Below the pieces are notes generated by a model. The model saw only the letters and a program-made list of their open reading frames with translations. It made no database searches and was not told the origin of the DNA. This document shows, in pieces, positions 13,959-31,642 of a stretch of DNA of 64,000 bases. Source of the stretch: a phage. A program made the translations under genes and the position numbers. The stretch's first letter is position 1, and each line of letters starts with the position of its first letter. The DNA lies in the sequence record PZ379177.1; one strand, written 5' to 3'.

Positions 13959-14221
13959 GATACGGATGATACGGATAAAATGAGGCGTATTTTTATCCGT
14001 ATCGGTGTATAAGCCGCGCTATCACTGGTGTGCTACGGATGATACGGATGATACGGATACTTTTCATATATAAGAGTTTATAAAAAAAATAAAATTAAAT
14101 TAGATATATAATTTTAAATTAATTTATTTGAATTCCTATAAAGTATCGCGGCAACGCGTATCATCCGTATCATCCGTAAGATTCTTTTGAAAACAACTAC
14201 TTACTTGATACGGATGATACG
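13959..14221. repeat. complex regulatory repeat module copy 1: inverted arrays of 9-bp GATACGGAT units flanking an AT-rich core
   Basis: GATACGGATGATACGGATA at 13959 and 14041, ATCCGTATC in opposite orientation at about 13995 and 14156-14184; core 14060-14150 is >85% AT. Confidence 0.6.
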
Positions 14222-16194: not shown

Positions 16195-18603
16195 TCAACC
16201 TTGCTTCGGTGAATTAGTAGGATTATTGAGTGCTCCGTATGCTTGAGAGCAATCACCCTTCAACCACTCCTTGAATGAGTTCACATCTAATTCGTGGATT
16301 GAGTCGAATCCGTTCCAACCGTTACCAAATGATGCTTGATAAGCTTCTTTCGCTTCTTCTGCTGAATCGAATCCAAGCATACACTTGTGTTCATCAAACT
16401 CGCCAGAGTAGTTATCGTTTTGGTTCACGATAAAGACTTTCGGCGACTTCAGATTTGGACCCACAAAGCAGTCGACTTCATCACCGTCTGCGCCCTTGGT
16501 GCCCTTGATGAATCCGTAGTGGTGCGGCATCTTCACGGCCCATTCACCGTCAAGGCTGTTTCCTCTACGAATGCTGTTTCGCGGATTCTCAATGCCAAGA
16601 ATCATTCCGTGCAACTTCATCTTAGGTAATGATGCTGCGTCCATTTTACCCACGTTGTGGCGTAAGTTGACGACGTGTCCTTTAACGCTTGGAAGGGTAG
16701 ACGGTTGCACCGACCGTGAATCTTTTTGAGGGTCAAAATCCACATCCTGACCTTCTTTCAGGTAGTAATCCGCAATACCCTCCAGCCCTTCTTTCAACTG
16801 CGTTAGGACATCAACCTGATGGCTTGATTCATCACCGGTATCGTCCATGTTGATTTCGACAGGCGCTTTGTCAGGGTTTTCCGCCAACTCACCACGCGCA
16901 GCACCCTCTGGCATAATACCTGTTTCGCTATAGAACTGGCCGCCCATCTTAACGACATCAGCTTTCGCCTGTTCAATATCGGCCTTACCTTGCAGGACTT
17001 CACCAGCAGACTTGCCAAGCAATGCCATATTCTCTGGAGACATCCCTGGGGTTTCTTCTGCTGCGTCTTCCGGCAGACGGTTGTAGCCGCTGTTTTTGTC
17101 GTCTTTGATGCGGTCGCGCTCTTCATCAGGAGAAATGACGCCAGCATCAATAAGAGTTTTGCCAGTGTTGGCTCGCTTATCATTGATTTCTGCAAGTTGA
17201 GTAGCAGTAAGTGAGCCAACTGGTTCCCATGCAACCTTAACATCGACATCCACCCCTTCTGATTTGAGAAGGATTTTGTAATGGCGGTCGAGAATTTTTG
17301 TCAGGTCATGCTGCTGGCACGTTTCCAACTCTTCGTGATAGCTGACCATCTCGAATTCACCAGTGGCGTTAAAGCCTTTTGGCGAAGTCCCAAGCAGTTT
17401 GGTCGACGGAACTTTTGCGATTGCGGCCACAAGCTGGTACTGGTTCATGATGATGCTGTCGAAGTCTGACAAGTTGATGTCAAACTGGTCCATCTCTTCT
17501 TTTTGGCCAAGCACTTTGACTGCATAGTTGTCGCGGTACTTGATCCACATCATCAGACGTTCTGCAAAAGACCGCTCATTGGCAATAGCCTTGTCAACGT
17601 CGGTCCGCAGCGTCGTTGTACGCTTGGACATCGCCAGCAATGGCGCTTCGTTGGCGGTACGTTCAGCGGCATAGATGCGTTCATAAATCTGCTGAGTCAG
17701 AGGGATGCCGCCGTAAATATAAGTCGGCTTGAGAATATCAGCTGGCTCATCGTTGCGCAAGATTATGAGGTGGCTGCGATGATAACGTTGTCCGCTGATT
17801 ACCCAATATTCTGGGTCATAGAAGTGCTGTGATGCAGGGTCTGCCGTGTTTTCAGACGTCAGAAACGGCATCATCCAATAAGGGTCAACCTGAATGATTC
17901 CCTTATAAGACCCCTTTGTCACACCATCAATGTTAAAAGGCTTGCTGTAATATTCTGGGTCATCGCTACGCACATCAAATATGATGACGCGGATACCAAA
18001 AATATTTTTGAATCGTTCGGCTTCAACTAAGTGCTCTTTGATATTAAATTCTTTATCAATTTGCTTTAGGCGTTCGCTTGCCTGTACTGACAATTCTGAC
18101 TCAGAACTGGATTTGACTTCCCAACCTTTACGGACCGCATCGCGGCCTACCATGGAACACGCCTTGTTCACCAGCCAATGCTGTGCGATGATGGCACAAG
18201 CTTGATAGCCGATGAATGACTGTGACAGATACCAGTTTTGAAGTTGAATAGGTACTGTGTATGGGTTGACTTGCCCTTCTGAACTGATGTTCTTTAAGGC
18301 ATTATCCATAACCTTTTTGGATACTGTTGCGGAATCGACTGAACGACCTTTTATGATTGCAACACCATCGCCATTAATATCAGGCTCATATAAAGGGAAG
18401 TCATCAACCGTTTTAAAGGTCGGTCGATTGCTTTCAGTCTTTTCCCAGCGTTGACCGCTGCCGCGCCTTTCAAGGCGTTCAAACGGTGCCAATGGGTCGC
18501 CTGGCGGCATCTCCGCTGGTTCGGCTTCTGGTTGCGTCTTCTCCCAGAGTTTTATGCCAAGAATTTTCATTGTTAACGCCACCTGACAGTGAAAGGGAAT
18601 CAA
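16195..18603 (-). CDS. portal protein with C-terminal inorganic pyrophosphatase-like domain
   Basis: 802 aa between terminase and Mu-F-like gene; C-terminal HHYGFIKGTKGADGDEVDCFVG and AEEAKEAYQASF resemble family I PPase YGYINHTLSLDGDPVDVLV and AEAAKAEIVASF. Confidence 0.6.
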   Translation of the reverse strand: MIPFHCQVALTMKILGIKLWEKTQPEAEPAEMPPGDPLAPFERLERRGSGQRWEKTESNRPTFKTVDDFPLYEPDINGDGVAIIKGRSVDSATVSKKVMDNALKNISSEGQVNPYTVPIQLQNWYLSQSFIGYQACAIIAQHWLVNKACSMVGRDAVRKGWEVKSSSESELSVQASERLKQIDKEFNIKEHLVEAERFKNIFGIRVIIFDVRSDDPEYYSKPFNIDGVTKGSYKGIIQVDPYWMMPFLTSENTADPASQHFYDPEYWVISGQRYHRSHLIILRNDEPADILKPTYIYGGIPLTQQIYERIYAAERTANEAPLLAMSKRTTTLRTDVDKAIANERSFAERLMMWIKYRDNYAVKVLGQKEEMDQFDINLSDFDSIIMNQYQLVAAIAKVPSTKLLGTSPKGFNATGEFEMVSYHEELETCQQHDLTKILDRHYKILLKSEGVDVDVKVAWEPVGSLTATQLAEINDKRANTGKTLIDAGVISPDEERDRIKDDKNSGYNRLPEDAAEETPGMSPENMALLGKSAGEVLQGKADIEQAKADVVKMGGQFYSETGIMPEGAARGELAENPDKAPVEINMDDTGDESSHQVDVLTQLKEGLEGIADYYLKEGQDVDFDPQKDSRSVQPSTLPSVKGHVVNLRHNVGKMDAASLPKMKLHGMILGIENPRNSIRRGNSLDGEWAVKMPHHYGFIKGTKGADGDEVDCFVGPNLKSPKVFIVNQNDNYSGEFDEHKCMLGFDSAEEAKEAYQASFGNGWNGFDSIHELDVNSFKEWLKGDCSQAYGALNNPTNSPKQG

Positions 18604-22523: not shown

Positions 22524-24866
22524 ATGCCAAGGCTAATATTCAAAAACAACTTTGAGGTCGCGCTCGCTCAGCCAACGACGACTTCAAACACCACAATCAC
22601 AATTCGCTCAGGGTCGGGCTTTCCGACCTTGGGCGCAAACGAGCGTGTAGTGGCGACAATCGTTGACGCTGCAACAGGCCTCCAATTCGAAATCGTCACA
22701 GTAACAGCCGTTGTTGGAAACGTCCTGACCGTGCAGCGTGCACAAGAAGGAACTGCAGCGCGTGCATGGGCAGCTGGCGATTTACTTTCCATTCGAACAA
22801 CTGCCGCGACTTTGACGGGTACTGTCCGAAACTTTGGAGAGATTCCCTCAGGCATCAACCTTAATGCGCTTACTGGCAGCTGGTTCGGTCAGTATTATCA
22901 ACCTTCTAGTGGCGCAGCATCAACTGCGCTTAATTACCCACTCCAATCGTCTGGCGTGCTGGAAGTAATTCAAATTTCAGCAAATGCTTGCTCACAAAAA
23001 TACACTACCACAGTAGGTTTTGAATATAATAGAACATTTGATGGCGCATCATGGTCACCTTGGAAGAGGGTTTATAGCGAACTCGATGTAATCCCAGTCT
23101 CCAACGGTGGTACAGGTCAAACTACCATCCAAGGAATGAAGTCTGCTTTTGGATTCGGGCAAGTCGCTGATCAGAATATTGTTCCTACTTCGATGGGCGG
23201 CACAGGCTCAGCAGACAACGCTCAAGCATGGCTAAATATTCGTCCACAAGGCTCAACACCGCTTGCTGGCGACCCAGTTAACGACTATGATGCGACAACT
23301 AAGCGTTGGGTTGAGAACTTAGTTAACACAGGCACCGTTGGCCCAAGTATGAACGGCGTCATGAACTATGGTGTTGGTGATTTCCATCTTCGCAATAGTA
23401 GATCATATATTCAGCAATACGAAGTCGTTGCAGACGGGCAATTACTAAACCGTGCTGACTGGCCTGAACTTTGGGCATATGCACAGATGCTTTCACCCAT
23501 TGCAGATGCCGATTGGCTTGCGGATAAGTTCAAACGTGCAAAATATTCTTTAGGCAACGGAACAACGACATTCCGTGTCCCAGACCTTAACGGTGTCCAG
23601 ACAGGTTCTGTACGGGCGCTGTATGGGCGCGGCGATGGCGGAAACTCCACTGCGAACGGTCAAATATTCGAATCTGCCGCGCCAAACATCACAGGCTCAG
23701 CCGCAGGTGTATCGGCAGGCACTTATGCGCAAATTTTTGGCACAGCCGTCCGAGGTGCTTTTTACACAAACAATGATTTGTACCCTCAAGGCGCTGGCGA
23801 CACCATACCTGTTGGAAGCGGTGCAGTAGAGGGTCGTCTCAATACAATAAATATTGATGCATCCAGATCAAGCCCGATTTATGGAGCAGCAACTGACGAA
23901 ATCATGGGCCGCAACTTTGTAGGCATTTGGGTTATTCGTGCATCGGGCGGATTTGTTGCCGCGAATACGCAATGGCAAGTTATCAATGCTGATGCTGTTC
24001 GCCCAGGGTCTGGAGTGAAGGCATCTTCTGGACAGGTAAAGGCACAATACAAAATTGGGACGACAGTTGAAGCAGAAGCAGGATTGCGAAGCGATGCATA
24101 CATGGATGGTATGTATTACGCAATAATGTCTGTCTACAACAAAACAAAAGGTGTTACAAAGGAATTTGCATTTGGCGATGATGGAATGCTGAATGGTGAC
24201 AGATACACTGCAAGATATGGCACATTGATGGCTTGGAGTGAGACTGGTACTAGAAGGGGAACATTCTCGATTGAGAACCAGTCACTTGCGGCGAACTATG
24301 CATTCAATAGTCTGCTCAGTGGTGGGCAATCGGTATCAGCAGGATATTATACTTCTACACACTTTGGCATGATTCACAATGACGGTGGAAGCTTTGCTCA
24401 ATCGTGCTGGCACGTGGTTGGTGACGAAAACAACGGGTATGGTTGCCGATTGGCGATTCAACCAAACAACGATAACATATTCTTTTATCGTTGGGTGCCT
24501 GGTGATACCGCTACTTATACACTTGCAAAGAATGCTGTGTCTGATGAAAGGCTTAAATCTGATATCACTGATGTCTCTGTTGATAAGGCTTGGGCGAATA
24601 TTGCTGCGCTTAACTTTGTTAATTTCGTCTATAAGTCCGATGAACAGCAAAGGTTGCGGCGCGGCATCATAGCACAGCCTACAGAGTTAATTGAGCCTCT
24701 TTATGTTAAAACTCGTAAATTTTACGACGACAACAATGTGCAACAAGAGCAAAAGGAGCTTGACACAACTCCAATGCTTCTTGACACGATGCACGTGGTT
24801 CAGGAGTTGATGAAAAAGGTTGAGTCACTAGAGGCAGAGATAGCCGCGCTGAAATCAGCAAAATAA
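22524..24866 (+). CDS. tail fibre protein with C-terminal intramolecular chaperone (peptidase S74-type) domain
   Basis: 780 aa; C-terminal block SDERLKSDITDVS...ALNFVNFVYK...GIIAQ typical of auto-cleaving fibre chaperone domains. Confidence 0.7.
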   Translation: MPRLIFKNNFEVALAQPTTTSNTTITIRSGSGFPTLGANERVVATIVDAATGLQFEIVTVTAVVGNVLTVQRAQEGTAARAWAAGDLLSIRTTAATLTGTVRNFGEIPSGINLNALTGSWFGQYYQPSSGAASTALNYPLQSSGVLEVIQISANACSQKYTTTVGFEYNRTFDGASWSPWKRVYSELDVIPVSNGGTGQTTIQGMKSAFGFGQVADQNIVPTSMGGTGSADNAQAWLNIRPQGSTPLAGDPVNDYDATTKRWVENLVNTGTVGPSMNGVMNYGVGDFHLRNSRSYIQQYEVVADGQLLNRADWPELWAYAQMLSPIADADWLADKFKRAKYSLGNGTTTFRVPDLNGVQTGSVRALYGRGDGGNSTANGQIFESAAPNITGSAAGVSAGTYAQIFGTAVRGAFYTNNDLYPQGAGDTIPVGSGAVEGRLNTINIDASRSSPIYGAATDEIMGRNFVGIWVIRASGGFVAANTQWQVINADAVRPGSGVKASSGQVKAQYKIGTTVEAEAGLRSDAYMDGMYYAIMSVYNKTKGVTKEFAFGDDGMLNGDRYTARYGTLMAWSETGTRRGTFSIENQSLAANYAFNSLLSGGQSVSAGYYTSTHFGMIHNDGGSFAQSCWHVVGDENNGYGCRLAIQPNNDNIFFYRWVPGDTATYTLAKNAVSDERLKSDITDVSVDKAWANIAALNFVNFVYKSDEQQRLRRGIIAQPTELIEPLYVKTRKFYDDNNVQQEQKELDTTPMLLDTMHVVQELMKKVESLEAEIAALKSAK

Positions 24867-24873
24867 TTCACTC

Positions 24874-24900
24874 AAGGCGCTGAAAAGCGCCTTTACTTTA
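24874..24900 (+). terminator. rho-independent terminator
   Basis: hairpin AAGGCGCTGAAAAGCGCCTT followed by T-rich tract, 8 nt after tail-fibre stop. Confidence 0.5.
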
Positions 24901-24947
24901 TGCTCGATTAAGTTATACTCATTATACGTTAACAAGTGAGGTGGTTC

Positions 24948-25154
24948 ATGGAAATTAAAGTATTGTCCGATTTTGTGAAAAGTATCGAAGCCAAAGGCAT
25001 GACAATCAAGGCCAAAGGCAGTCTCGTTTGCATTGATAAGCAACAAAGCGATCAAAGTATATCACTTGATGATATCAAAACGATGCAAAAGCTCAATAAG
25101 AAAGGTGCTTTGCACGAGTTCTTAACGGATATTGGAGCAGTGGACAATGGATAA
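24948..25154 (+). CDS. hypothetical protein
   Basis: ORF trimmed to MEIKVL start with GAGGTGG RBS. Confidence 0.4.
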   Translation: MEIKVLSDFVKSIEAKGMTIKAKGSLVCIDKQQSDQSISLDDIKTMQKLNKKGALHEFLTDIGAVDNG

Positions 25155-25248
25155 AGAGGCACGGCGCTTTGCATTTTGGGGCACGGTTTGTGTTGTCTCC
25201 CTGTTTGGGATAGTTTACGCAATCATTCATGCTGCTGCGGCATAAATT

Positions 25249-25644
25249 ATGATCATCGATATTGAAAAGGCGCTTAAGCGTGAACTGACACCAGGCGCAA
25301 CTCCTGGTGAAGAAGCCTACTACCGACCAAAGTCGCAACGCACCAATGATATTCCGGTCGCCAAGCGTACAGTGAATAAAAACGGTCAGCGGTCGCGACC
25401 GCGCTCTATCCGGTCCGGTGAGAAGCTGAAAACGATTCGTCAGTGTCTACAACGCCTCGAAATCATGGGTTGTCGCGCTTATATCGACCCTGATGGAAAG
25501 GTTCTGGTGAGAATTGGCAATAGTACACAACTACAAGACGGATTGCCCTGCGGCGAATCCAGACCCATAGCCAAGACCGACCGTGTAGCTACTGGCCGCG
25601 AGATTGAGGAAAGTTGGTTGGGTGCTTTCTTATTAAAATATTGA
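25249..25644 (+). CDS. hypothetical protein
   Basis: 131-aa basic ORF. Confidence 0.4.
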   Translation: MIIDIEKALKRELTPGATPGEEAYYRPKSQRTNDIPVAKRTVNKNGQRSRPRSIRSGEKLKTIRQCLQRLEIMGCRAYIDPDGKVLVRIGNSTQLQDGLPCGESRPIAKTDRVATGREIEESWLGAFLLKY

Positions 25645-25651
25645 GGATTAT

Positions 25652-25849
25652 GTGAATCAAAATGAATCAGTAGCATTCTTACAATGGCTGGAAGGTGTGG
25701 TGGAGTATTACGCTCCAAAAGACCGCTTCATCTTTCAAGGAAAAAGTTACAAGCGCAAAGGGCAGGCCCAGAAAGCAGCGCGTAAGTACTGGAAGGAAGT
25801 TTATTCAGAGTTCTTTCAGCAGATGGGCAGCACAGTTGGTATCGATTGA
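25652..25849 (+). CDS. hypothetical protein
   Basis: 65-aa ORF. Confidence 0.4.
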   Translation: MNQNESVAFLQWLEGVVEYYAPKDRFIFQGKSYKRKGQAQKAARKYWKEVYSEFFQQMGSTVGID

Positions 25850-25944
25850 TGAATGTTGATTTCGTGATGTTTTTGATCATATTGGCGATAAGTTCAGTAT
25901 TTGTTGTCGCTATGATCGCGCTTATTGATTGGTTGGATAAATAA
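25849..25944 (+). CDS. small hydrophobic protein (31 aa), not in ORF track
   Basis: ATG shares its A with the upstream TGA stop; product MNVDFVMFLIILAISSVFVVAMIALIDWLDK is a single transmembrane helix. Confidence 0.3.
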   Translation: MNVDFVMFLIILAISSVFVVAMIALIDWLDK

Positions 25945-26602
25945 ATCGTGGTTTTGGTGATTTTGGTGATTTAACCGTGAATCGTGGGTCGCTGTGGCGG
26001 CCCTTTCTTTTGCCTGCCGCGCAGGAGTGTACTGCAAATTTACTGTGGGCACAAAATAGTACGGTACTGTCCAGGACTTTTTCTTTGAAAAGTTAGTGGA
26101 CCAAATGTGTCGTATTTTGATTAGTGTACTGCAAATTCCATCAAGTAGCAAAACGCACCAAAAGACCCATGCCATAAAAACCACACGAACGCAATAATCA
26201 ATCGCCGTTACAGTTTCCAGCGTTACAATTCGAAAGCGAATGATTCGATGCATAATAATATGAAGCATAATGATTCGAAAGCTAATGATTGCGTGTAGGA
26301 TAATATCGGTGGGGATTATTCTAGATGCATGTAATTTCGCATGCGTACTATTTTCGGACGAAGGGTCGGCATATTCCTCGTTTTAGTTCGGAACGAAGGG
26401 AAAGTTTTGCGCCTTTATAAAACAATGACTTACGCGACCCGCCCTAACGGTCCGATATAGGTGTCTATATAAAACAAGGACTTACGCGATGTTCTCCATT
26501 TAACGTAATACCCGTTATGCGAACTAAGGCGCATCTCGACGAAGATTATGCGACGACGAAGGGAAGGATAAAGGAGTTTTCGCGGAGAAGCGCATCGAGA
26601 TA

Positions 26603-26634
26603 GGGACGAAGAAAAGCCGCGACTAAGCGCGGCC
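26603..26634 (-). terminator. rho-independent terminator closing the leftward arm of the atypical cassette
   Basis: minus-strand hairpin GCCGCGCTTAGTCGCGGC followed by TTTTCTTCG, about 20 nt after the 26654 stop. Confidence 0.4.
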
Positions 26635-26653
26635 TATTAGTAACGGAAGGGTA

Positions 26654-26944
26654 TTATAAGGAAACGATTTTAAAGAAAGAGTAACGGCCTTCGCCTTCGG
26701 ATACCGCGAGATATTCGCCGCCGAACTCCGTAGCAAAATAAACCTTGCCTTCGATAGTAACGCGGAAGGTAGAAATATCTTCCTCTTCGAGTTCCGTAAA
26801 TTCGCTAAAATCGATAGGACTATGAAGCTCCTCGATAGTCGCATCTACGTTAAAGAGATAAACGTTTTTAAGTTTTTCGCCAAATACGTTAGAGTTTTCG
26901 GAAGTTTCGGCGCGAGCGTTACGGATAGCGGCTAAAGTAATCAT
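26654..26944 (-). CDS. hypothetical small acidic protein (cassette gene 1)
   Basis: 96 aa; AGGAGATTATTATG initiation context; CG-rich codon usage unlike flanking phage genes. Confidence 0.55.
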   Translation of the reverse strand: MITLAAIRNARAETSENSNVFGEKLKNVYLFNVDATIEELHSPIDFSEFTELEEEDISTFRVTIEGKVYFATEFGGEYLAVSEGEGRYSFFKIVSL

Positions 26945-27045
26945 AATAATCTCCTAGTTGGGTCGGGAGGGTAGCGACCTATTCGCTACCTCATCCCCTC
27001 TCGATATAAAACATTATAGTCTTAGTGTACGAAGAAGTAAAGCAC
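26945..27045 (-). promoter_or_regulatory. sigma70-type promoter plus structured 5' UTR for cassette gene 1
   Basis: minus strand TTTACT-N17-TATAAT, then hairpin GGTAGCGA-ATAGG-TCGCTACC, then AGGAG RBS. Confidence 0.5.
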
Positions 27046-27052
27046 TTTTTCA

Positions 27053-27355
27053 TTATTCTGCGATAAAATATTTATAAGCTTTATCGCCTTCTACGTCGAT
27101 ATACTCGACGATAATTAACGCTTCGCCGCGAGGCGTAACCGTCTCGATAAGGGTAACGGCTTCGTCGTCGGTCTTCGCGAAGCGGATGGCGCTACGTTCG
27201 GCATACTTCATATCGTCGAAGGAAAGGCCGATGAAGGCGACCGCGCGGACCTTAATGGCGCTAGATTCTAGTTCCGCGTTAACGGCGGCGATAAGAGAGC
27301 GAACAGTTAAGCGGTCTTCGTCGTAAGTAAGGATGGAAGAGATTAAAGTAGTCAT
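27053..27355 (-). CDS. hypothetical small acidic protein (cassette gene 2)
   Basis: ORF trimmed to MTTLISS start with GGGAGCTTTATTATG context; same atypical codon style. Confidence 0.55.
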   Translation of the reverse strand: MTTLISSILTYDEDRLTVRSLIAAVNAELESSAIKVRAVAFIGLSFDDMKYAERSAIRFAKTDDEAVTLIETVTPRGEALIIVEYIDVEGDKAYKYFIAE

Positions 27356-27396
27356 AATAAAGCTCCCGATGCTAGTAGAAGAAAGGGCCATCGCCC

Positions 27397-27579
27397 GTCT
27401 CGATATAAACAAGTATACGCGAGTGTACGAAGAAGTAAAGAAAAAAGATAAAATAATTTATCGCATTTTTATCTAAAAAGTGCTTTACTTTTTTCTACAC
27501 TATATTATAATGTACTCATATCGGGACGGGATGAGTTAACGAATAGGTCGTTAACGCCTCTCCCAACTAGGAGTTTATT
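27397..27579. promoter_or_regulatory. divergent promoter pair with central palindromic operator and structured 5' UTR
   Basis: leftward TTTACT-N16-TATACT; rightward TTTACT-N16-TATAAT; between them AGATAAAA-N13-TTTTATCT; rightward UTR hairpin GTTAACGA-ATAGG-TCGTTAAC then AGGAG RBS. Confidence 0.5.
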
Positions 27580-27894
27580 ATGGCTATCGTTACCCGCTTT
27601 ACCCTCGAAAACGCAACCGCCGAAGTCCAGGGCGTTACGCTTACTTACGGCGAAATTCTCGCTAAATTCTCCGGCGTTCGCTTAGGCGAAGAAATTAACG
27701 ACGCGACGGTAATCGAGCAACTCGCTGCTTCTCGCTTAGAGCGCGACGAAAACGGATTCTTCGAAGTCGATGCGGAATTAAATTTATGCGGTAAAACGGC
27801 GTTTATTAACGAGTTCGAACTCGCCGTTTTAGTTAATTACGATAGCAAAGCTTACGCCTTCGCCCTCGAATTAATCGAAGACGACGAAGAGTAA
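27580..27894 (+). CDS. hypothetical small acidic protein (cassette gene 3)
   Basis: 104 aa, acidic C-terminus IEDDEE; AGGAGTTTATTATG context. Confidence 0.6.
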   Translation: MAIVTRFTLENATAEVQGVTLTYGEILAKFSGVRLGEEINDATVIEQLAASRLERDENGFFEVDAELNLCGKTAFINEFELAVLVNYDSKAYAFALELIEDDEE

Positions 27895-27974
27895 GAGAGG
27901 ATTTTTAGAGCGTCGTGCGCGGCGCTTTAATAAAATTCTTTCGCGCCTAGCGCCCTAACAAATAGGAGTTTATT

Positions 27975-28601
27975 ATGGTTAGCTTAAATCGCTTTTCTAC
28001 TAGCGGCGACGTTATCGCAACTAAGACCGCCGACCTCGTTGCATTCTATAATGCAAATTCCGGCTCAAAACCGATTAAGAAGTTTGCGGACCGCCGGACC
28101 GCCGAGACTCGCGTAATCGCGTTAATCGAGTCCTTAAACGCGCTCGATGCGCCGTCCAACGAGTCGCCCATCCCCGACGCGAAGGCGCGCGAGGAAGTGT
28201 CCAGCGATGTAAAAACTCATAAGGCGCGTGCGGTCGTTAAAAAGGCTGAGCCGACCCAGGAAGAACTCGACGCGATGACCGACGAAGAATATGAAGCCTT
28301 CGTTAAGAGCGGTTTAAATGATAGTGCAAATTGCGTAGTGCAAAATGGAACTCCTTCCCATCGCCGTTCGAATAGCGAAGGTATTGCAAAAAGCTGGGAT
28401 AATAAGGAAGTGGCGCAAAAGCGTCTCACCCGTAACGGTGTCATGGTCGAGGGTGTAGGCGAGTTCAAATCGGTCCGCGTAGCGTTCGCTGCGCTGGGAT
28501 TACCGGATAGCAAGCACATTCGCTTCCGCATGAAGCTTAAGGAAGCTGGGCGCTTGAACTTCGAGTTCGGCAACAAGTCCTACACCTTCCAGATTATCTA
28601 A
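27975..28601 (+). CDS. hypothetical protein (cassette gene 4)
   Basis: 208 aa; identical AGGAGTTTATTATG context; contains two ATAGTGCAAAT-type motif copies in its coding sequence. Confidence 0.6.
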   Translation: MVSLNRFSTSGDVIATKTADLVAFYNANSGSKPIKKFADRRTAETRVIALIESLNALDAPSNESPIPDAKAREEVSSDVKTHKARAVVKKAEPTQEELDAMTDEEYEAFVKSGLNDSANCVVQNGTPSHRRSNSEGIAKSWDNKEVAQKRLTRNGVMVEGVGEFKSVRVAFAALGLPDSKHIRFRMKLKEAGRLNFEFGNKSYTFQII

Positions 28602-28607
28602 TAGAAT

Positions 28608-28631
28608 GGCGGCCCTTCGGGGTCGCTTTTC
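28608..28631 (+). terminator. rho-independent terminator closing the rightward arm of the cassette
   Basis: hairpin GGCGGCCC-TTCG-GGGTCGC followed by TTTT, 7 nt after the 28601 stop. Confidence 0.4.
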
Positions 28632-28651
28632 ATAGTGCAAATTGGTGGCTT

Positions 28652-28915
28652 ATGAATACGCTCATTCTCATCGCTACGTTATCCATCGGAAGTGGTCGCA
28701 CCTTATCCCTTTACGACCATAGTGCAAATTGCGCTTATCCTACGCGCGTTGCGGCGATAGTTAATAGTGCAAATAAGATGCTATTCGAGACTTGCTGGCG
28801 GGTCGATAACGAGAAAGGTCGGGTAGTCTTAGGTTATAGTGCAAATCTGCTGGTGGAGTCGTTCGATTGGACGGTTGAAGGTCGTAAATTGTTACGGAAA
28901 GTGACTAAAAGATGA
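28652..28915 (+). CDS. questionable ORF (87 aa) carrying three in-frame copies of the 11-mer
   Basis: weak RBS; motif copies read as HSANCA, NSANKM, YSANLL; may be a repeat region rather than a gene. Confidence 0.25.
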   Translation: MNTLILIATLSIGSGRTLSLYDHSANCAYPTRVAAIVNSANKMLFETCWRVDNEKGRVVLGYSANLLVESFDWTVEGRKLLRKVTKR

Positions 28916-28976
28916 CTTATAATAATACACTTTCTAACGCGTTTATGGTTGTAACCTTCCCCGTCGTATTACCGAT

Positions 28977-29016
28977 GGCCCTAGAAGTGGAGAAAATGTG
29001 TTCTAGGGCCGTTTTA
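28977..29016 (+). terminator. rho-independent terminator
   Basis: perfect 10-bp inverted repeat GGCCCTAGAA...TTCTAGGGCC followed by GTTTTA. Confidence 0.5.
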
Positions 29017-29029
29017 TAGTGCAAATTGG

Positions 29030-29503
29030 CTAGTGGCGGGAGAATTGCTCACCTTCTTTGGCCGCCTCTCCAAAATCCTTGTAGAAATCGTCCATGGAAC
29101 GGCCCATTTTACTATTGCCGTTTTCATCAATCATCGTGATGCCGTAGATGATATTCAGTTCACGAATAGCATTAAGTTTGGCTGACGCCGCGACTTCTGG
29201 ATCACGCACAAGCTTGACCAAATTGTGAATTGCACCTTTTACGCTCCACAAATCCTTGAGTGGCATCTCTTCCATACGCTTTTTGAAGCGCATCTTGTAG
29301 TATGGATTGCGTTGCGCGCAAAGGATTCGCTGGCCAGTGTAGTTATCCGTTGCAACTTCCATTCCAAATACTAGTGCAAAAGCTGCGCGCATGTCATGGC
29401 CCTGAATAACAAGGTCAATGAACTCATCGAATAAAGCCTGATTGTGCTCTGCAAATCGCGGGTCTTCAAAGTCTTCAGGCATCGCTACATAATCTTGACT
29501 CAT
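29030..29503 (-). CDS. hypothetical protein (speculatively terminase small subunit-like)
   Basis: 157 aa with normal phage codon style; no clear SD; both candidate ATGs lie inside copies of the 11-mer (read as TTTGCACTATG on the coding strand). Confidence 0.45.
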   Translation of the reverse strand: MSQDYVAMPEDFEDPRFAEHNQALFDEFIDLVIQGHDMRAAFALVFGMEVATDNYTGQRILCAQRNPYYKMRFKKRMEEMPLKDLWSVKGAIHNLVKLVRDPEVAASAKLNAIRELNIIYGITMIDENGNSKMGRSMDDFYKDFGEAAKEGEQFSRH

Positions 29504-29654
29504 AGTGCAAAATCCCATAGTGCAAATTAATAGTGTGAATTATACAATGGATGGACATTATATTCAAGTGCAGATTGATGTTCATTATGGCTATAAACGT
29601 ACACAAATCATAGTGCTGAATGGATAACGGACCGTGGTGCGTGGTGTACTGTTT

Positions 29655-30004
29655 GATACGGATAAAAGAAATCCATCCCTTTCGCCGCTTGTTATGCAAA
29701 TCAATGACTTAGCCGCTGCTGGCTGGTTTAAGCGTATCATGACGTATCATCCGTATTGCCGCAAGTCTTTGTTTTTACTTATATCTTACGGATAATACGT
29801 TAAATATATAAATTAACATAAGTATGAGGATGTAGAAAAAAAATTAATTTAAATTAATTCAAAATGGAGTTAATTAATTTTTGAAATAATTCTGGTTACA
29901 ATAAGGAAAAATGGCGTATCATCCGTATCATCCGTAAGATTCAGTGTACAAATCCAGGCGCGGCGCACCCTAGCGCCATGATACGGATAAAAACCTATCC
30001 GTAA
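29655..30004. repeat. complex regulatory repeat module copy 2 (GATACGGAT units flanking an AT-rich core)
   Basis: 29-bp block GCGTATCATCCGTATCATCCGTAAGATTC identical to 14156-14184; GATACGGATAAAA at 29655 and 29980; AT-rich core 29800-29900. Confidence 0.6.
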
Positions 30005-30319
30005 GAGTGTACGCTTCAATTAAAGAATCCAGGCGCGGCGCGGCTTTCACCACCACACACCACGGTTCACTCTCCAAAATCCGCACACTAAATTCCAAAA
30101 TCCAATGCTCATACTCCAAAAATAAATCCAAATTTCCATTTTATTTATTATTTTCATCCACAATATACTAAATTCTATCCGTATTAACCACGACTCAACC
30201 CACCACGATTCATGCCAATCACTTCAAAATTTCCATCGAAAACGACAAAAGGCCGCGTAAAGCGACCAATTGCACACATTCCATTATTCAAAACACGTAA
30301 ACGAGTGTTCTTTTATCCA

Positions 30320-30859
30320 CTATAATTTAGGCATCAATCCCTTTTCCGTTCTCCTTTTTATCTCGTCTTCTATCATTTTATTGGTCACTCTATAGCCAAT
30401 CCTTTCCAATTCCATTAATACTTCCTTTTGGTATTTTCTTATTTTCACAATGTCAACCGTATCCCTCCAATAAGATAATACCTTCTTAATGACTGACTTT
30501 TCCATTTTATATCTGGCGGTAGTCATATACTTCATTTTAAAAATAGAGTTGATCGCATCAGTCTTTAACCATTCCTTTCTTAATTCAGGATGATCATTCC
30601 AAAGAGTAATGGCGAACTCCTGCGGACTTTTGCACCTGCTTTGAAGCTCCTTTATATAGTCAGCCGTTTTTACTTTTCTATCTAAACGCGCGCGGCAAAC
30701 GGTGCACTCTTCCTTGAGCAACCAATCGGCCTTCTTATCAATTTGCAAAGTTGAATTGCCATCCCTTTTATACCTGCCGCAAAAGCTTATGCCTTCATCT
30801 TTTAAGAAGTAATGCAACTCTTTAGAGTATTTCGCTTTACGCCAAAAGCCTCCCATCAC
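30320..30859 (-). CDS. hypothetical protein
   Basis: 179-aa basic ORF. Confidence 0.45.
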   Translation of the reverse strand: MMGGFWRKAKYSKELHYFLKDEGISFCGRYKRDGNSTLQIDKKADWLLKEECTVCRARLDRKVKTADYIKELQSRCKSPQEFAITLWNDHPELRKEWLKTDAINSIFKMKYMTTARYKMEKSVIKKVLSYWRDTVDIVKIRKYQKEVLMELERIGYRVTNKMIEDEIKRRTEKGLMPKL

Positions 30860-31425
30860 CCCTCCTTAACTACCCGATAAGCAACAACGTCCCAAGCTTC
30901 TCCGTGGTGATCCCAATGCAAAACACTCGAGTGAATTTGATCATTGCCACGTTCGCCGTTACGCATTTTGAATTCAACCATTTCCCCAGGCACCGGATTA
31001 TCGCCACCAAACCACACGGTCCACGCTTCCTCCTTCGGCGCATCAGAATCCACGCCTATAGTAGCAACGACGTCATGCAACTGCTTAACGAGCGCCGACG
31101 CATCACGGACTTGTGAGCGTAATGCAACCAACTCGCGTTGCACTTCACTGTATTTCGCTTCCAGCGCGGCATAATCAGCAAACTTCACATATGAACCAGA
31201 GGTGTCATCACCCTCTGTATTGAGCCATGCATCATTGCAGTTTACTGCATACGTTTTAACTTCACCGCATTTCGGCTCAAGCGCGACGCGACTTTTTACT
31301 TCACTGTATTTCGCTTCCAGCGCGGCATAGTCCTCATATTCAACATAGCCGCCTTCATCATCCTTTACAACTTCGCATGTGCAAGCGTGCTGCGTGCAAT
31401 AATCAACATCATAACGTTGTATCAT
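30856..31425 (-). CDS. hypothetical protein with internal tandem duplication
   Basis: 189 aa; repeated block DYAALEAKYSEV encoded by duplicated DNA around 31138-31175 and 31288-31325. Confidence 0.45.
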   Translation of the reverse strand: MIQRYDVDYCTQHACTCEVVKDDEGGYVEYEDYAALEAKYSEVKSRVALEPKCGEVKTYAVNCNDAWLNTEGDDTSGSYVKFADYAALEAKYSEVQRELVALRSQVRDASALVKQLHDVVATIGVDSDAPKEEAWTVWFGGDNPVPGEMVEFKMRNGERGNDQIHSSVLHWDHHGEAWDVVAYRVVKEG

Positions 31426-31642
31426 TTAACTTCTCCAAAATTTCGATGGCGATTTGTGTTTGCTTCTCAAGAGCAAGACGCAACATGTCAATTTGCAAGT
31501 CACGGTGGGCCAGTTCAGCGGCGATGTCTGACTTGCGGTAAAGTCCTTCATGAGTCATGGCATAGATGTGGCGCGTATAATAGCCGCCCTCGTCGAGTTG
31601 CTCGATGTCACGTTGCCCGACTGCGTATTGTTTATCGGTCAT
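31409..31642 (-). CDS. hypothetical protein
   Basis: 77-aa ORF in tightly packed leftward block. Confidence 0.35.
   Translation of the reverse strand: MTDKQYAVGQRDIEQLDEGGYYTRHIYAMTHEGLYRKSDIAAELAHRDLQIDMLRLALEKQTQIAIEILEKLNDTTL

What the first reader, a model, noticed from the sequence alone, without database searches (positions are those of the whole stretch)
27397..27579. Three near-identical sigma70-type promoters and a palindromic operator between the divergent pair
Each cassette transcription unit is preceded by the same module: GAAAAAGTGCTTTACTT, a 16-17 nt spacer containing ACACT, then TATAAT or TATACT (leftward copies at about 27013-27041 and 27412-27439; rightward copy at 27484-27511). 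Between the back-to-back promoters lies a perfect inverted repeat AGATAAAA-N13-TTTTATCT (27446-27474). That is the classic layout of an autoregulated divergent operon controlled by a dimeric DNA-binding protein. No HTH regulator is recognisable in the cassette, so the factor may be one of the four unknown proteins or host-encoded.
Basis: seen in the sequence. Interest (0 to 1): 0.65.

Follow-up and report, generated by a model that had tools for sequence, protein, structure and literature searches.

The report
Phage early promoters in terminal repeat
Three copies of a host-type promoter drive small early genes in the 3.7-kb terminal repeat of an E. coli Wifcevirus phage; the "operator" palindrome between two of them is better read as two back-to-back AT-rich promoter-enhancing (UP-like) elements, so the feature is real but ordinary.

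Summary
The window is a Wifcevirus (WFH/WFC-like E. coli myophage). The finding lies inside its 3.7-kb direct terminal repeat, which maps to window 26161-29865.

The three promoter modules are real, and the coordinates are correct. CTTTACTT-N14-18-TATAMT gives 4 hits against 0.01 expected. The fourth hit is at 24892-24919.

Two of the modules are really ~108-nt inverted duplicates. Each holds a promoter, a 5'UTR hairpin supported by compensatory changes, a Shine-Dalgarno site and the ATG.

Across 17 relatives the -35 hexamers never vary. The -10 hexamers change only at positions 3-5.

The palindrome is present but weak evidence for an operator:
- An arm of 8 bp or more arises in 3% of shuffles of the 80% A+T segment.
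- Its outer pair is specific to this window (G in all 17 relatives).
- It lies upstream of both -35 hexamers, centred near -55/-58, and overlaps neither core promoter.
- Its arms coincide with strong matches to the UP-element subsite consensus.
- The three small genes that directly follow the three promoters encode acidic proteins (pI 4.1-4.6), which are unlikely DNA binders.

Best reading: strong, largely constitutive sigma70 early promoters with UP-like upstream DNA, driving small early genes of unknown, possibly anti-host, function. An operator cannot be excluded without experiments.

The parts
26161..29865 (.). Direct terminal repeat (DTR) of the phage genome. It contains the whole feature.
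   Evidence: The ends of the WFH record and the PhageTerm-annotated DTR of Mansfield map to 26161 and 29865. 'Terminal repeat of about 3.7 kb' is stated in PMC6563267.
27484..27511 (+). Rightward sigma70-type promoter: TTTACT (27484-27489), 16 nt, TATAAT (27506-27511). Inferred start about 27518.
   Evidence: Only one variable site, in the spacer, across 17 relatives.
27412..27439 (-). Leftward sigma70-type promoter of the divergent pair: TTTACT (27439-27434), 16 nt, TATACT (27417-27412). Inferred start about 27405.
   Evidence: Invariant in 17 relatives.
27013..27041 (-). Second leftward sigma70-type promoter: TTTACT, 17 nt, TATAAT. Inferred start about 27006.
   Evidence: -35 invariant. The -10 varies only to TATACT or TATGAT.
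27440..27483 (.). 80% A+T segment between the two -35 hexamers, with UP-like subsites for both promoters and phased A/T tracts. It includes a 9/10 match to the H-NS motif (GCGATAAATT, reverse complement of 27455-27464).
   Evidence: UP scoring: leftward distal subsite 10/10 (top 0.02% of window positions); rightward proximal 7/8 (top 0.3%); full element 10/14 for both (top 0.45%). Consensus taken from PMC4132738. A/T tracts. H-NS motif from PMC2094087.
27446..27474 (.).
   Evidence: Present. Arm >=8 bp in 3% of shuffles. 27474 is G in all 17 relatives.
27060..27087 (.). Sibling inverted repeat GCGATAAA-N12-TTTATCGC, upstream of the 27013 promoter and inside the 3' end of the 100-aa CDS.
   Evidence: The inner pair is broken in 8 of 17 relatives (27080 is C in 7 and A in 1). 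It lies 178 bp further from the promoter in ECO71P1, AV128 and RCIP0363.
27043..27051 (-). GAAAAAGTG, a proximal UP-like subsite of the 27013 promoter. The same 9-mer, with T for the first G, is at 27474-27482 (+).
   Evidence: 7/8 match to AAAAAARNR, top 0.3% of window positions.
27535..27555 (+). 5'UTR stem-loop of the rightward transcript: GUUAACGA-AUAGG-UCGUUAAC.
   Evidence: Folding. Covariation with the paralogous copy and with relatives.
26970..26990 (-). Paralogous 5'UTR stem-loop of the 27013 transcript: GGUAGCGA-AUAGG-UCGCUACC.
   Evidence: z = -2.35. 98% of cells paired, 3 of 8 pairs with changes on both sides, G.U intermediates.
27580..27894 (+). 104-aa acidic protein (pI 4.07), first gene of the rightward unit. 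It is an accessory gene, absent from four relatives.
   Evidence: Absent in RCIP0319, ECML-117, Ro157lw and Eco4M-7.
27975..28601 (+). 208-aa basic protein (pI 9.1, phrog_4730), second gene of the rightward unit. It is conserved in Pbunavirus, Myosmarvirus and Carpasinavirus phages.
27053..27355 (-). 100-aa acidic protein (pI 4.55), driven by the 27412 promoter.
26654..26944 (-). 96-aa acidic protein (pI 4.40), driven by the 27013 promoter. A terminator follows at 26635-26614.
24892..24919 (+). Fourth promoter of the same type (TTTACT-16-TATACT), just outside the DTR and overlapping the tail-fibre gene terminator.

Best explanation
These are strong host-type (E. coli sigma70) promoters. They transcribe small genes located in the direct terminal repeat of a Wifcevirus phage, and these are probably immediate-early genes.

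Each promoter has a conserved TTTACT -35 hexamer, a 16-17 nt spacer and a TATAAT or TATACT -10 hexamer. Two of them also carry a duplicated leader with a stable 5' stem-loop and a strong SD (AGGAG-N6-ATG).

The 44-bp A+T-rich DNA between the back-to-back promoters most likely acts as two head-to-head UP-like elements, that is, contact sites for the RNAP alpha C-terminal domains combined with phased A/T tracts. These would boost both promoters. The inverted repeat is largely a by-product of that arrangement and of the head-to-head duplication of the module, not a repressor operator.

Shut-off later in infection, if it happens, is more likely to act on RNAP than on this DNA.

Shown here: the sequence anatomy, its conservation, the location in the DTR and the covariation in the leader hairpin. 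Inferred: transcription start sites, early timing, UP function and the roles of the proteins.
For: - Identity and location: 91-98% nucleotide identity to Wifcevirus genomes. The DTR maps to 26161-29865 (PMC6563267).
- Promoter pattern: 4 hits against 0.01 expected, among the best consensus matches in 22-32 kb.
- Conservation: 27405-27518 has 4 variable sites in 114, against 33 in 110 for the two flanking leaders. The -35 hexamers are invariant and -10 changes occur only at positions 3-5.
- UP-consensus matches at the expected place: leftward distal 10/10 (top 0.02%), rightward and 27013 proximal 7/8 (top 0.3%) (consensus from PMC4132738).
- In three relatives a 178-bp insertion removes the sibling IR from the 27013 promoter but again places an A-tract next to GTGC-TTTACT.
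- The leader hairpin shows compensatory and G.U changes on the predicted transcribed strand, which supports transcription in the predicted direction.
- No phage RNAP was found among the ten largest ORFs. The relative 14-1 relies on host RNAP, and its sigma70-like promoters are active in E. coli.
- The Serratia homologue of the 208-aa gene is also preceded by a sigma70-like promoter, in a region enriched for them (17 found, 7.1 expected).
- The three small proteins directly downstream of the three promoters are acidic, as many early anti-host phage proteins are (own knowledge).
Against: - No transcript data exist for any Wifcevirus, so start sites, timing and strength are inferred.
- The -35 hexamer matches only 4 of 6 consensus positions.
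- The UP-like subsites are offset 1-3 bp from the canonical rrnB P1 register, and the leftward promoter lacks a proximal subsite.
- The half-site GATAAA/TTTATC recurs as an inverted repeat at two promoters with similar centre-to-centre spacing (about 19-20 bp): 3 hits against 0.14 expected. A pure UP reading does not require this.
- The AT-rich segment is as conserved as the core promoter, which also fits a protein-binding site.
- The relatives are at least 91% identical, so conservation has little power to discriminate.
Confidence: 0.6

Rival explanations
1. The inverted repeat, and its sibling at 27060-27087, is a binding site for a dimeric or tetrameric regulator encoded by the phage. The regulator would switch the divergent early promoters on or off. 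This is the first reader's operator, or a phi29 p4-like switch that binds upstream of -35 in curved DNA.
For: - A perfect 8-bp IR in this window.
- The same half-site recurs as an IR upstream of the 27013 promoter, with 19-20 bp between half-site centres in both. GATAAA-N2-20-TTTATC gives 3 hits against 0.14 expected.
- The segment is highly conserved: 3 variable sites in 44.
- A basic 208-aa protein of unknown fold is encoded in the rightward unit.
Against: - An arm of >=8 bp arises in 3% of shuffles, and >=7 bp in 9.5%.
- The outer pair is absent in all 17 relatives.
- The IR overlaps neither -35 nor -10.
- The inner pair of the sibling IR is broken in 8 of 17 relatives, and that IR lies 178 bp away from its promoter in three.
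- The two IRs are partly the same duplicated module, so they are not independent (I6).
- No HTH or other DNA-binding domain in any DTR protein.
- The three small proteins directly downstream of the three promoters are acidic.
Confidence: 0.17
2. The A+T-rich inter-promoter DNA is a target for a host nucleoid protein. It could be an H-NS nucleation site, or a Fis or IHF site, that silences or modulates the incoming phage's early promoters. The inverted repeat would be incidental.
For: - GCGATAAATT (reverse complement of 27455-27464) matches the H-NS high-affinity motif tCGATAAATT at 9 of 10 positions.
- GCGATAAAAT at 27060-27069 matches it at 8 of 10 (motif from PMC2094087; sequence).
- The segment is 80% A+T with phased tracts.
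Against: This rests on motif resemblance only. Such 10-mers are easy to find in A+T-rich DNA. No IHF core was found by eye, and Fis was not tested. Lytic phage early promoters must fire at once, so silencing would be counter-productive unless the phage counters it, and no known H-NS antagonist was identified here.
Confidence: 0.1
3. The inverted repeat has no function of its own. It is a neutral relic of the head-to-head duplication that created the two promoter modules, and the upstream DNA contributes little.
For: - The two promoters are inverted duplicates: 27422-27440 against 27483-27501, 84% (I17). The dyad centre at about 27461.5 is close to the IR centre at 27460.
- The 27013 module carries the same TTTATCGCA upstream block (I6).
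- The IR is statistically marginal.
Against: The arms are not in register with the -35 hexamers: 6 nt against 9 nt. The segment is far more conserved than the flanking leaders and scores in the top 0.02-0.5% for UP subsites.
Confidence: 0.1

Closest known systems
Early or host-takeover promoter clusters in the long terminal repeats of virulent phages (SPO1 host-takeover module; T5 pre-early and early promoters such as PN25). From own knowledge, not checked in the literature here.
   Same: Several strong host-RNAP promoters with A+T-rich upstream blocks drive many very small genes of unknown or anti-host function. They lie in a direct terminal repeat, so each virion DNA carries two copies. The units are modular, each with its own promoter, a strong SD and a terminator.
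   Different: The DTR is much shorter (3.7 kb, against about 10-13 kb) and also carries a TerS-like gene. The proteins have no detectable homology to SPO1 or T5 proteins. Early timing has not been shown for Wifcevirus.
UP elements of E. coli promoters (rrnB P1). Consensus: distal NNAWWWWWTTTTN, proximal AAAAAARNR (PMC4132738).
   Same: A/T tracts lie immediately upstream of -35. Matches are 10/10 to the distal subsite (leftward promoter) and 7/8 to the proximal subsite (rightward and 27013 promoters).
   Different: The register is shifted by 1-3 bp. Two elements are packed head to head in 44 bp and would have to be shared by, or competed for by, two polymerases. Contact with the alpha C-terminal domain is untested.
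Phage phi29 regulator p4 sites between the divergent A2b/A2c and A3 promoters. From own knowledge.
   Same: An inverted repeat of A/T-rich arms separated by more than one helical turn, in curved DNA between back-to-back phage promoters and upstream of one -35.
   Different: No p4-like protein was identified. In phi29 the site overlaps the -35 of the repressed promoter, whereas here the IR overlaps neither core promoter. phi29 switches from early to late promoters, whereas here both promoters appear to be of the same class.
Sigma70-like promoters of Pbunavirus 14-1, mapped by ONT-cappable-seq (PMC10914365).
   Same: A distantly related lineage that relies on host RNAP. About half of its 50 start sites have sigma70-like promoters, and the four tested in a reporter assay were active in E. 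coli. A homologue of the 208-aa gene is present in Pbunavirus genomes.
   Different: No sequence similarity between the promoters. No terminal-repeat location is known for 14-1 from the data here. No homologue of the RNAP-alpha-binding protein gp12 of 14-1 was detected in the window.

Membership tests
Sigma70-dependent bacterial promoter | A -10 hexamer close to TATAAT, with T1, A2 and T6 kept | tested here: met
   TATAAT twice and TATACT twice. Variants in relatives (TATACT, TATGAT) keep T1, A2 and T6.
Sigma70-dependent bacterial promoter | A -35 hexamer close to TTGACA, 16-18 bp upstream of the -10 | tested here: met
   TTTACT (4 of 6) with a 16 or 17 bp spacer in all four copies. Invariant in 17 relatives.
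Sigma70-dependent bacterial promoter | Transcription starts 6-8 nt downstream of the -10, by E-sigma70 | not testable with these tools
   No transcriptome exists for any Wifcevirus. Indirect support comes from strand-specific covariation, including G.U pairs, in the leader hairpin.
UP element (binding site for the RNAP alpha C-terminal domain) | A/T-rich sequence at about -38 to -59 matching the proximal and/or distal subsite consensus | tested here: met
   Distal 10/10 (leftward), proximal 7/8 (rightward and 27013), full element 10/14 for both divergent promoters. All are in the top 0.02-0.45% of window positions, with a 1-3 bp register offset.
UP element (binding site for the RNAP alpha C-terminal domain) | Stimulation of transcription that depends on the alpha C-terminal domain | not testable with these tools
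   Needs in vitro transcription with truncated alpha, or reporter fusions.
Operator of a dimeric repressor in an autoregulated divergent operon (lambda OR or TetR/tetO type) | An inverted repeat beyond chance expectation | tested here: inconclusive
   An 8-bp arm occurs in 3% of shuffles and a 7-bp arm in 9.5%. A second IR with the same half-site exists but is partly the same duplicated module.
Operator of a dimeric repressor in an autoregulated divergent operon (lambda OR or TetR/tetO type) | The operator overlaps the -35, the -10 or the start site of the regulated promoters | tested here: not met
   The IR at 27446-27474 lies wholly between the -35 hexamers (27434-27439 and 27484-27489), with gaps of 6 and 9 bp.
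Operator of a dimeric repressor in an autoregulated divergent operon (lambda OR or TetR/tetO type) | A cognate DNA-binding regulator is encoded in one of the divergent units | tested here: not met
   No Pfam, PHROG-function, NCBIfam or PDB hit for any of the six DTR proteins. The three proteins next to the promoters have pI 4.1-4.6. The 208-aa basic protein remains of unknown fold; the single-sequence AF2 model has pLDDT 38.
Operator of a dimeric repressor in an autoregulated divergent operon (lambda OR or TetR/tetO type) | The symmetry of the site is kept in relatives | tested here: inconclusive
   The 7-bp core arms are invariant, but so is nearly everything in the segment. The outer pair is absent in 17 of 17 relatives. 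With three variable sites among the 44 positions, having none fall in the 14 core-arm positions is expected by chance in roughly 30% of cases (own hypergeometric estimate from the counts).
H-NS nucleation site | Match to tCGATAAATT within A+T-rich DNA | tested here: met
   9 of 10 at 27455-27464 (reverse complement) and 8 of 10 at 27060-27069. This is a resemblance only; binding is untested.

The most novel reading that the evidence does not exclude
The promoter-leader module may carry dedicated regulatory sites that no library knows. One candidate is the GATAAA/TTTATC inverted repeats upstream of two of the promoters, as targets of an unidentified phage early protein. That protein could be the conserved basic 208-aa protein encoded right behind the promoter, acting as a phi29-p4-like switch on alpha-CTD/UP-dependent promoters. 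The other candidate is the invariant AAUAGG loop of the covarying 5'UTR hairpin, as the target of a post-transcriptional regulator. Together they could time the very fast (3-5 min) Wifcevirus cycle from the terminal repeat.
Probability: 0.15. Interest if true: 0.5.

Novelty: new member of a known kind. Interest (0 to 1): 0.3.

Why it matters
Wifceviruses are poorly studied E. coli phages. One earlier study, cited in PMC11990801, reported very fast replication for two isolates, and nothing is known about their transcription.

Placing three or four strong host-type promoters and a covarying leader hairpin inside the terminal repeat gives a concrete and cheap starting point for mapping the immediate-early programme. 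It also marks the small acidic DTR proteins as candidate host-takeover or anti-defence factors. The compact promoter-leader-SD modules could be useful expression parts.

As biology it is expected, not surprising: early sigma70 promoters with A+T-rich upstream DNA are standard for phages that lack their own RNA polymerase.

Tried and rejected
- IMG/VR search with the 104-aa protein gave only Wifcevirus contigs and one false lead (L007, a short local match inside an unrelated larger ORF).
- Rfam at E<=1 over 24800-30200 gave nothing.
- Pfam, PHROGs, NCBIfam and PDB sequence searches of the DTR proteins gave no function. The only hits were phrog_4730 and phrog_4783, both 'unknown'. A PDB search with a five-sequence profile of the 208-aa family gave only a chance hit.
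- The search for homologous proteins for the 208-aa protein listed only relatives with at least 98% identity among its best 120, which is useless for alignment depth. A single-sequence AlphaFold model was unusable (pLDDT 38), so no fold search was run.
- A homologue of the RNAP-alpha-binding gp12 of Pbunavirus 14-1, which could have explained shut-off of UP-dependent promoters, was not found by tblastn at E<0.01. About 4 kb of the genome lies outside the window.
- The third GATAAA...TTTATC hit, at 13974, belongs to a different motif family (the ACGGATAAAA/TATCATCCGTA iterons) and is not a promoter-linked copy.
- The three small proteins were tested as paralogues. 96 aa against 104 aa gave 29% identity over 84 aa, E = 0.12. 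100 aa against 104 aa gave nothing. This is inconclusive.
- CRP, IHF and DnaA-box readings of the region were checked by eye against consensus sequences recalled from own knowledge and rejected for poor matches.
- AGTGTAC enrichment in the DTR (6 of the 8 window hits) is partly explained by the duplicated promoter spacers and was not pursued.

Full report
**What the window is.** The region 24800-31500 is 90-95% identical to Wifcevirus genomes (WFH, WFC, CWP003, Bas98-101 and others). The 661 bp around the finding is 91-98.5% identical in 29 records.

Wifceviruses are 66-72 kb E. coli/Shigella myophages distantly related to Pbunavirus (PMC11990801). WFC and WFH have 'a terminal repeat of about 3.7 kb' (PMC6563267). 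In the WFH record, genes gp001-006 are repeated as gp100-105, and Mansfield carries a PhageTerm-annotated DTR of 3673 bp. Mapping both sets of ends onto the window places the DTR at 26161-29865. The finding (27397-27579) therefore sits in the middle of the direct terminal repeat.

**Genes around it.**
- Leftward: a 100-aa gene (27053-27355) and a 96-aa gene (26654-26944), the latter followed by a terminator at 26635-26614.
- Rightward: a 104-aa gene (27580-27894), a 208-aa gene (27975-28601), then 87-aa and 35-aa ORFs.
- Leftward again: a 162-aa gene (29030-29518) that Mansfield annotates as the small terminase subunit.

None of these has a Pfam, NCBIfam or PDB match. PHROGs gives only 'unknown function' families for the 208-aa and 162-aa proteins. 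The three small proteins directly behind the promoters are acidic (pI 4.40, 4.55, 4.07), and the 208-aa protein is basic (pI 9.1).

**Checking the promoters.**
- TTTACT-17-TATAAT at 27041-27013 (-)
- TTTACT-16-TATACT at 27439-27412 (-)
- TTTACT-16-TATAAT at 27484-27511 (+)

CTTTACTT-N14-18-TATAMT occurs 4 times in the window against 0.01 expected. The fourth site, 24892-24919 (+), lies just behind the tail-fibre terminator.

The description 'same module GAAAAAGTGCTTTACTT' is only partly right. It is exact at 27035-27051 (-). The rightward copy starts with T in this window, and the 27412 copy has CTTTTTTC instead.

The repeat is also much longer than a promoter. 26942-27050 (-) and 27475-27582 (+) are inverted duplicates of about 108 nt. 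They run from an upstream TTTATCGCA block through the promoter, a conserved initial transcribed sequence (ATATCGRGA), a hairpin, CTAGGAG and the ATG (I1, I3, I6, I8).

**The leader hairpin.** The two long copies fold into an 8-bp stem with loop AUAGG:
- 27535-27555 (+): -17.1 kcal/mol for the leader.
- 26970-26990 (-): -20.7 kcal/mol, z = -2.35.

In an alignment of the 14 distinct versions from 18 genomes, 98.2% of cells pair. Three of 8 pairs show changes on both sides (G-C to U-A, G-C to A-U, U-A to A-U), with G.U intermediates. No slid control comes close on cells paired, and RNAalifold finds the same helix. The number of independent events is small: one paralogue split plus a few strain variants. 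G.U pairs make sense only in RNA of the predicted sense, which indirectly supports transcription from these promoters. There is no Rfam match. In IMG/VR the motif occurs only in Wifcevirus-sized contigs.

**Comparative evidence for the promoters.** In 17 relatives the 114 bp from 27405 to 27518 has 4 variable sites, against 33 in 110 for the two flanking leaders. All -35 hexamers are invariant. The only -10 changes (TATAAT to TATACT or TATGAT at the 27013 promoter) spare T1, A2 and T6.

The units behave as movable cassettes:
- The 104-aa gene is missing in RCIP0319, ECML-117, Ro157lw and Eco4M-7. There the promoter and leader are fused directly to the 208-aa gene.
- A 50-aa gene is inserted just upstream of the 27013 promoter in ECO71P1, AV128 and RCIP0363.

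None of the ten largest ORFs is an RNA polymerase. The distant relative 14-1 depends on host RNAP. 52% of its 50 mapped start sites are sigma70-like, and the four tested in a reporter assay were active in E. coli (PMC10914365). In the Serratia Myosmarvirus Spe5P4, the homologue of the 208-aa gene lies in a region enriched for sigma70-like sites (17 against 7.1 expected), one of them directly upstream of it.

**Checking the palindrome.** AGATAAAA (27446-27453), 13 nt, TTTTATCT (27467-27474) is present and perfect. Five points count against reading it as an operator.
1. The 44 bp between the -35 hexamers is 80% A+T. An arm of >=8 bp with a spacer of <=20 arises in 3.0% of shuffles, and >=7 bp in 9.5%.
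2. Position 27474 is G in all 17 relatives, so the perfect 8-bp form is private to this genome.
3. The IR lies entirely between the two -35 hexamers. Its centre is about -58 from the rightward start and -55 from the leftward one (starts inferred 7 nt after each -10). That is where activators and UP elements sit, not where classical repressors do.
4. Its arms are parts of sequences that score very highly against the UP-element subsite consensus (distal NNAWWWWWTTTTN, proximal AAAAAARNR; PMC4132738). The left arm plus spacer is a 10/10 distal subsite for the leftward promoter (top 0.02% of all window positions). The DNA from the right arm to the -35 gives a 7/8 proximal subsite and a 10/14 full element for the rightward promoter (top 0.3% and 0.45%). 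The 27013 promoter has the same 7/8 proximal subsite. A/T tracts recur every 7-9 bp.
5. No candidate regulator emerged (see 'Genes around it' above).

**What speaks for a specific site.** GATAAA-N2-20-TTTATC occurs three times in the window against 0.14 expected. One copy, at 13974, belongs to an unrelated iteron family. The other, GCGATAAA-N12-TTTATCGC at 27060-27087, lies upstream of the 27013 promoter, and its half-site centres are 19 bp apart, against 20 bp in the divergent region.

This sibling is not independent, because its promoter-proximal arm is part of the duplicated module (I6). It lies inside the 3' end of the 100-aa CDS. Its inner pair is broken in 8 of 17 relatives. In the three genomes with the 178-bp insertion it is moved away from the promoter, while a new A-tract (…GAAAAAAACGAAAAAAA-GTGC-TTTACT) takes its place. 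That pattern favours a need for A-tracts over a need for the IR.

The central GCGATAAATT is also a 9/10 match to the H-NS high-affinity motif tCGATAAATT (PMC2094087). This is a lead, not a test.

**Most likely mechanism.** On entry of the DNA, host E-sigma70 fires at these promoters. The A+T-rich upstream DNA probably raises their strength through contacts with the alpha C-terminal domains and through curvature. The 5' stem-loop and the strong SD give stable, well-translated short mRNAs for small acidic proteins and for the conserved 208-aa protein.

The nearest analogues are the early or host-takeover promoter clusters in the terminal repeats of SPO1 and T5 (own knowledge). I give this reading a probability of about 0.6. 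The rivals are a dedicated operator or a phi29-p4-like switch (about 0.17), a host nucleoid-protein site (about 0.1) and a functionless duplication relic (about 0.1). All functional steps are inferred, and no Wifcevirus transcriptome exists.

**Verdict.** The 'palindromic operator of an autoregulated divergent operon' is not supported by position, statistics, relatives or gene content, although it is not excluded. The feature is a new, undescribed example of a well-known kind, of modest interest.

Noticed in passing
window 26028-29527 (+ strand only): The motif (Y)ATAGTGCAAAT occurs about 11 times. All copies are on the + strand and all fall between 26028 and 29527: nine with at most 1 mismatch lie at 28047-29527 inside the DTR (26161-29865), and two 2-mismatch copies at 26028 and 26125 lie just outside its left boundary. 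Several are embedded in frame in CDSs, giving HSAN, NSAN and YSAN in the 87-aa protein and YNAN and DSAN in the 208-aa protein. Others sit just 5' of gene starts (28631, 29015, 29501, 29516). It looks like a strand-specific DNA signal. Candidates are terminase recognition, nick sites, or -10-like (TATAGT) promoters for modified RNAP.
   Followed up: partly
window 13960-14220 and 29745-29936: TATCATCCGTA / TACGGATGATA iterons give 11 hits against 0.76 expected, in two clusters. One cluster flanks a nearly pure A+T stretch at 14060-14130 in a 560-bp intergenic gap, a candidate replication origin. The other lies at the right boundary of the DTR.
   Followed up: partly
window 29830-29895: The right DTR boundary (about 29865) lies in an extremely A+T-rich stretch (…AAAAAAAATTAATTTAAATTAATTCAAAATGGAGTTAATTAATTTTTG…).
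   Followed up: no
window 29539-29584 (-): Two overlapping good sigma70-like sites (TGAACA-16-TATAAT and TTGAAT-17-TATAAT, 10 of 12 each) lie directly upstream of the TerS-like gene (29030-29518, -) inside the DTR. A small terminase gene with its own host-type promoter in the terminal repeat is unusual.
   Followed up: no
window 27333-27476 (+); L002 4548-4718: Bas100, Bas101 and kaset annotate a + strand CDS (171 nt in Bas100 and Bas101, a shorter 117-nt one in kaset) across the divergent promoter region. In this window the T at 27474 creates a TAA stop that truncates the ORF. The annotation is probably spurious.
   Followed up: partly
window 27580-27894; L010/L012/L013 1621-1773: Accessory-gene turnover occurs at the promoter modules. 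The 104-aa gene is absent from four relatives, with the repeated AGGAGTTTATTATGG block at both junctions. A 50-aa gene is inserted upstream of the 27013 promoter in three others (D8, 22-31, 53).
   Followed up: yes
window 27975-28601: The 208-aa protein has two conserved domains joined by a variable charged linker: an N-terminal domain of about 50 aa (DLVAFYNAN..IKKF.DR.TAE.RV) and a C-terminal domain of about 75 aa (IA.SW…R.TRNGV…SKHIRFRMKLK). Homologues occur in 356 phage records, mostly Pbunavirus. The Serratia homologue carries an extra N-terminal domain of about 130 aa.
   Followed up: partly
window 16195-18603 (-): The portal protein ORF carries a C-terminal inorganic pyrophosphatase (InPase, PF18823) domain.
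   Followed up: no
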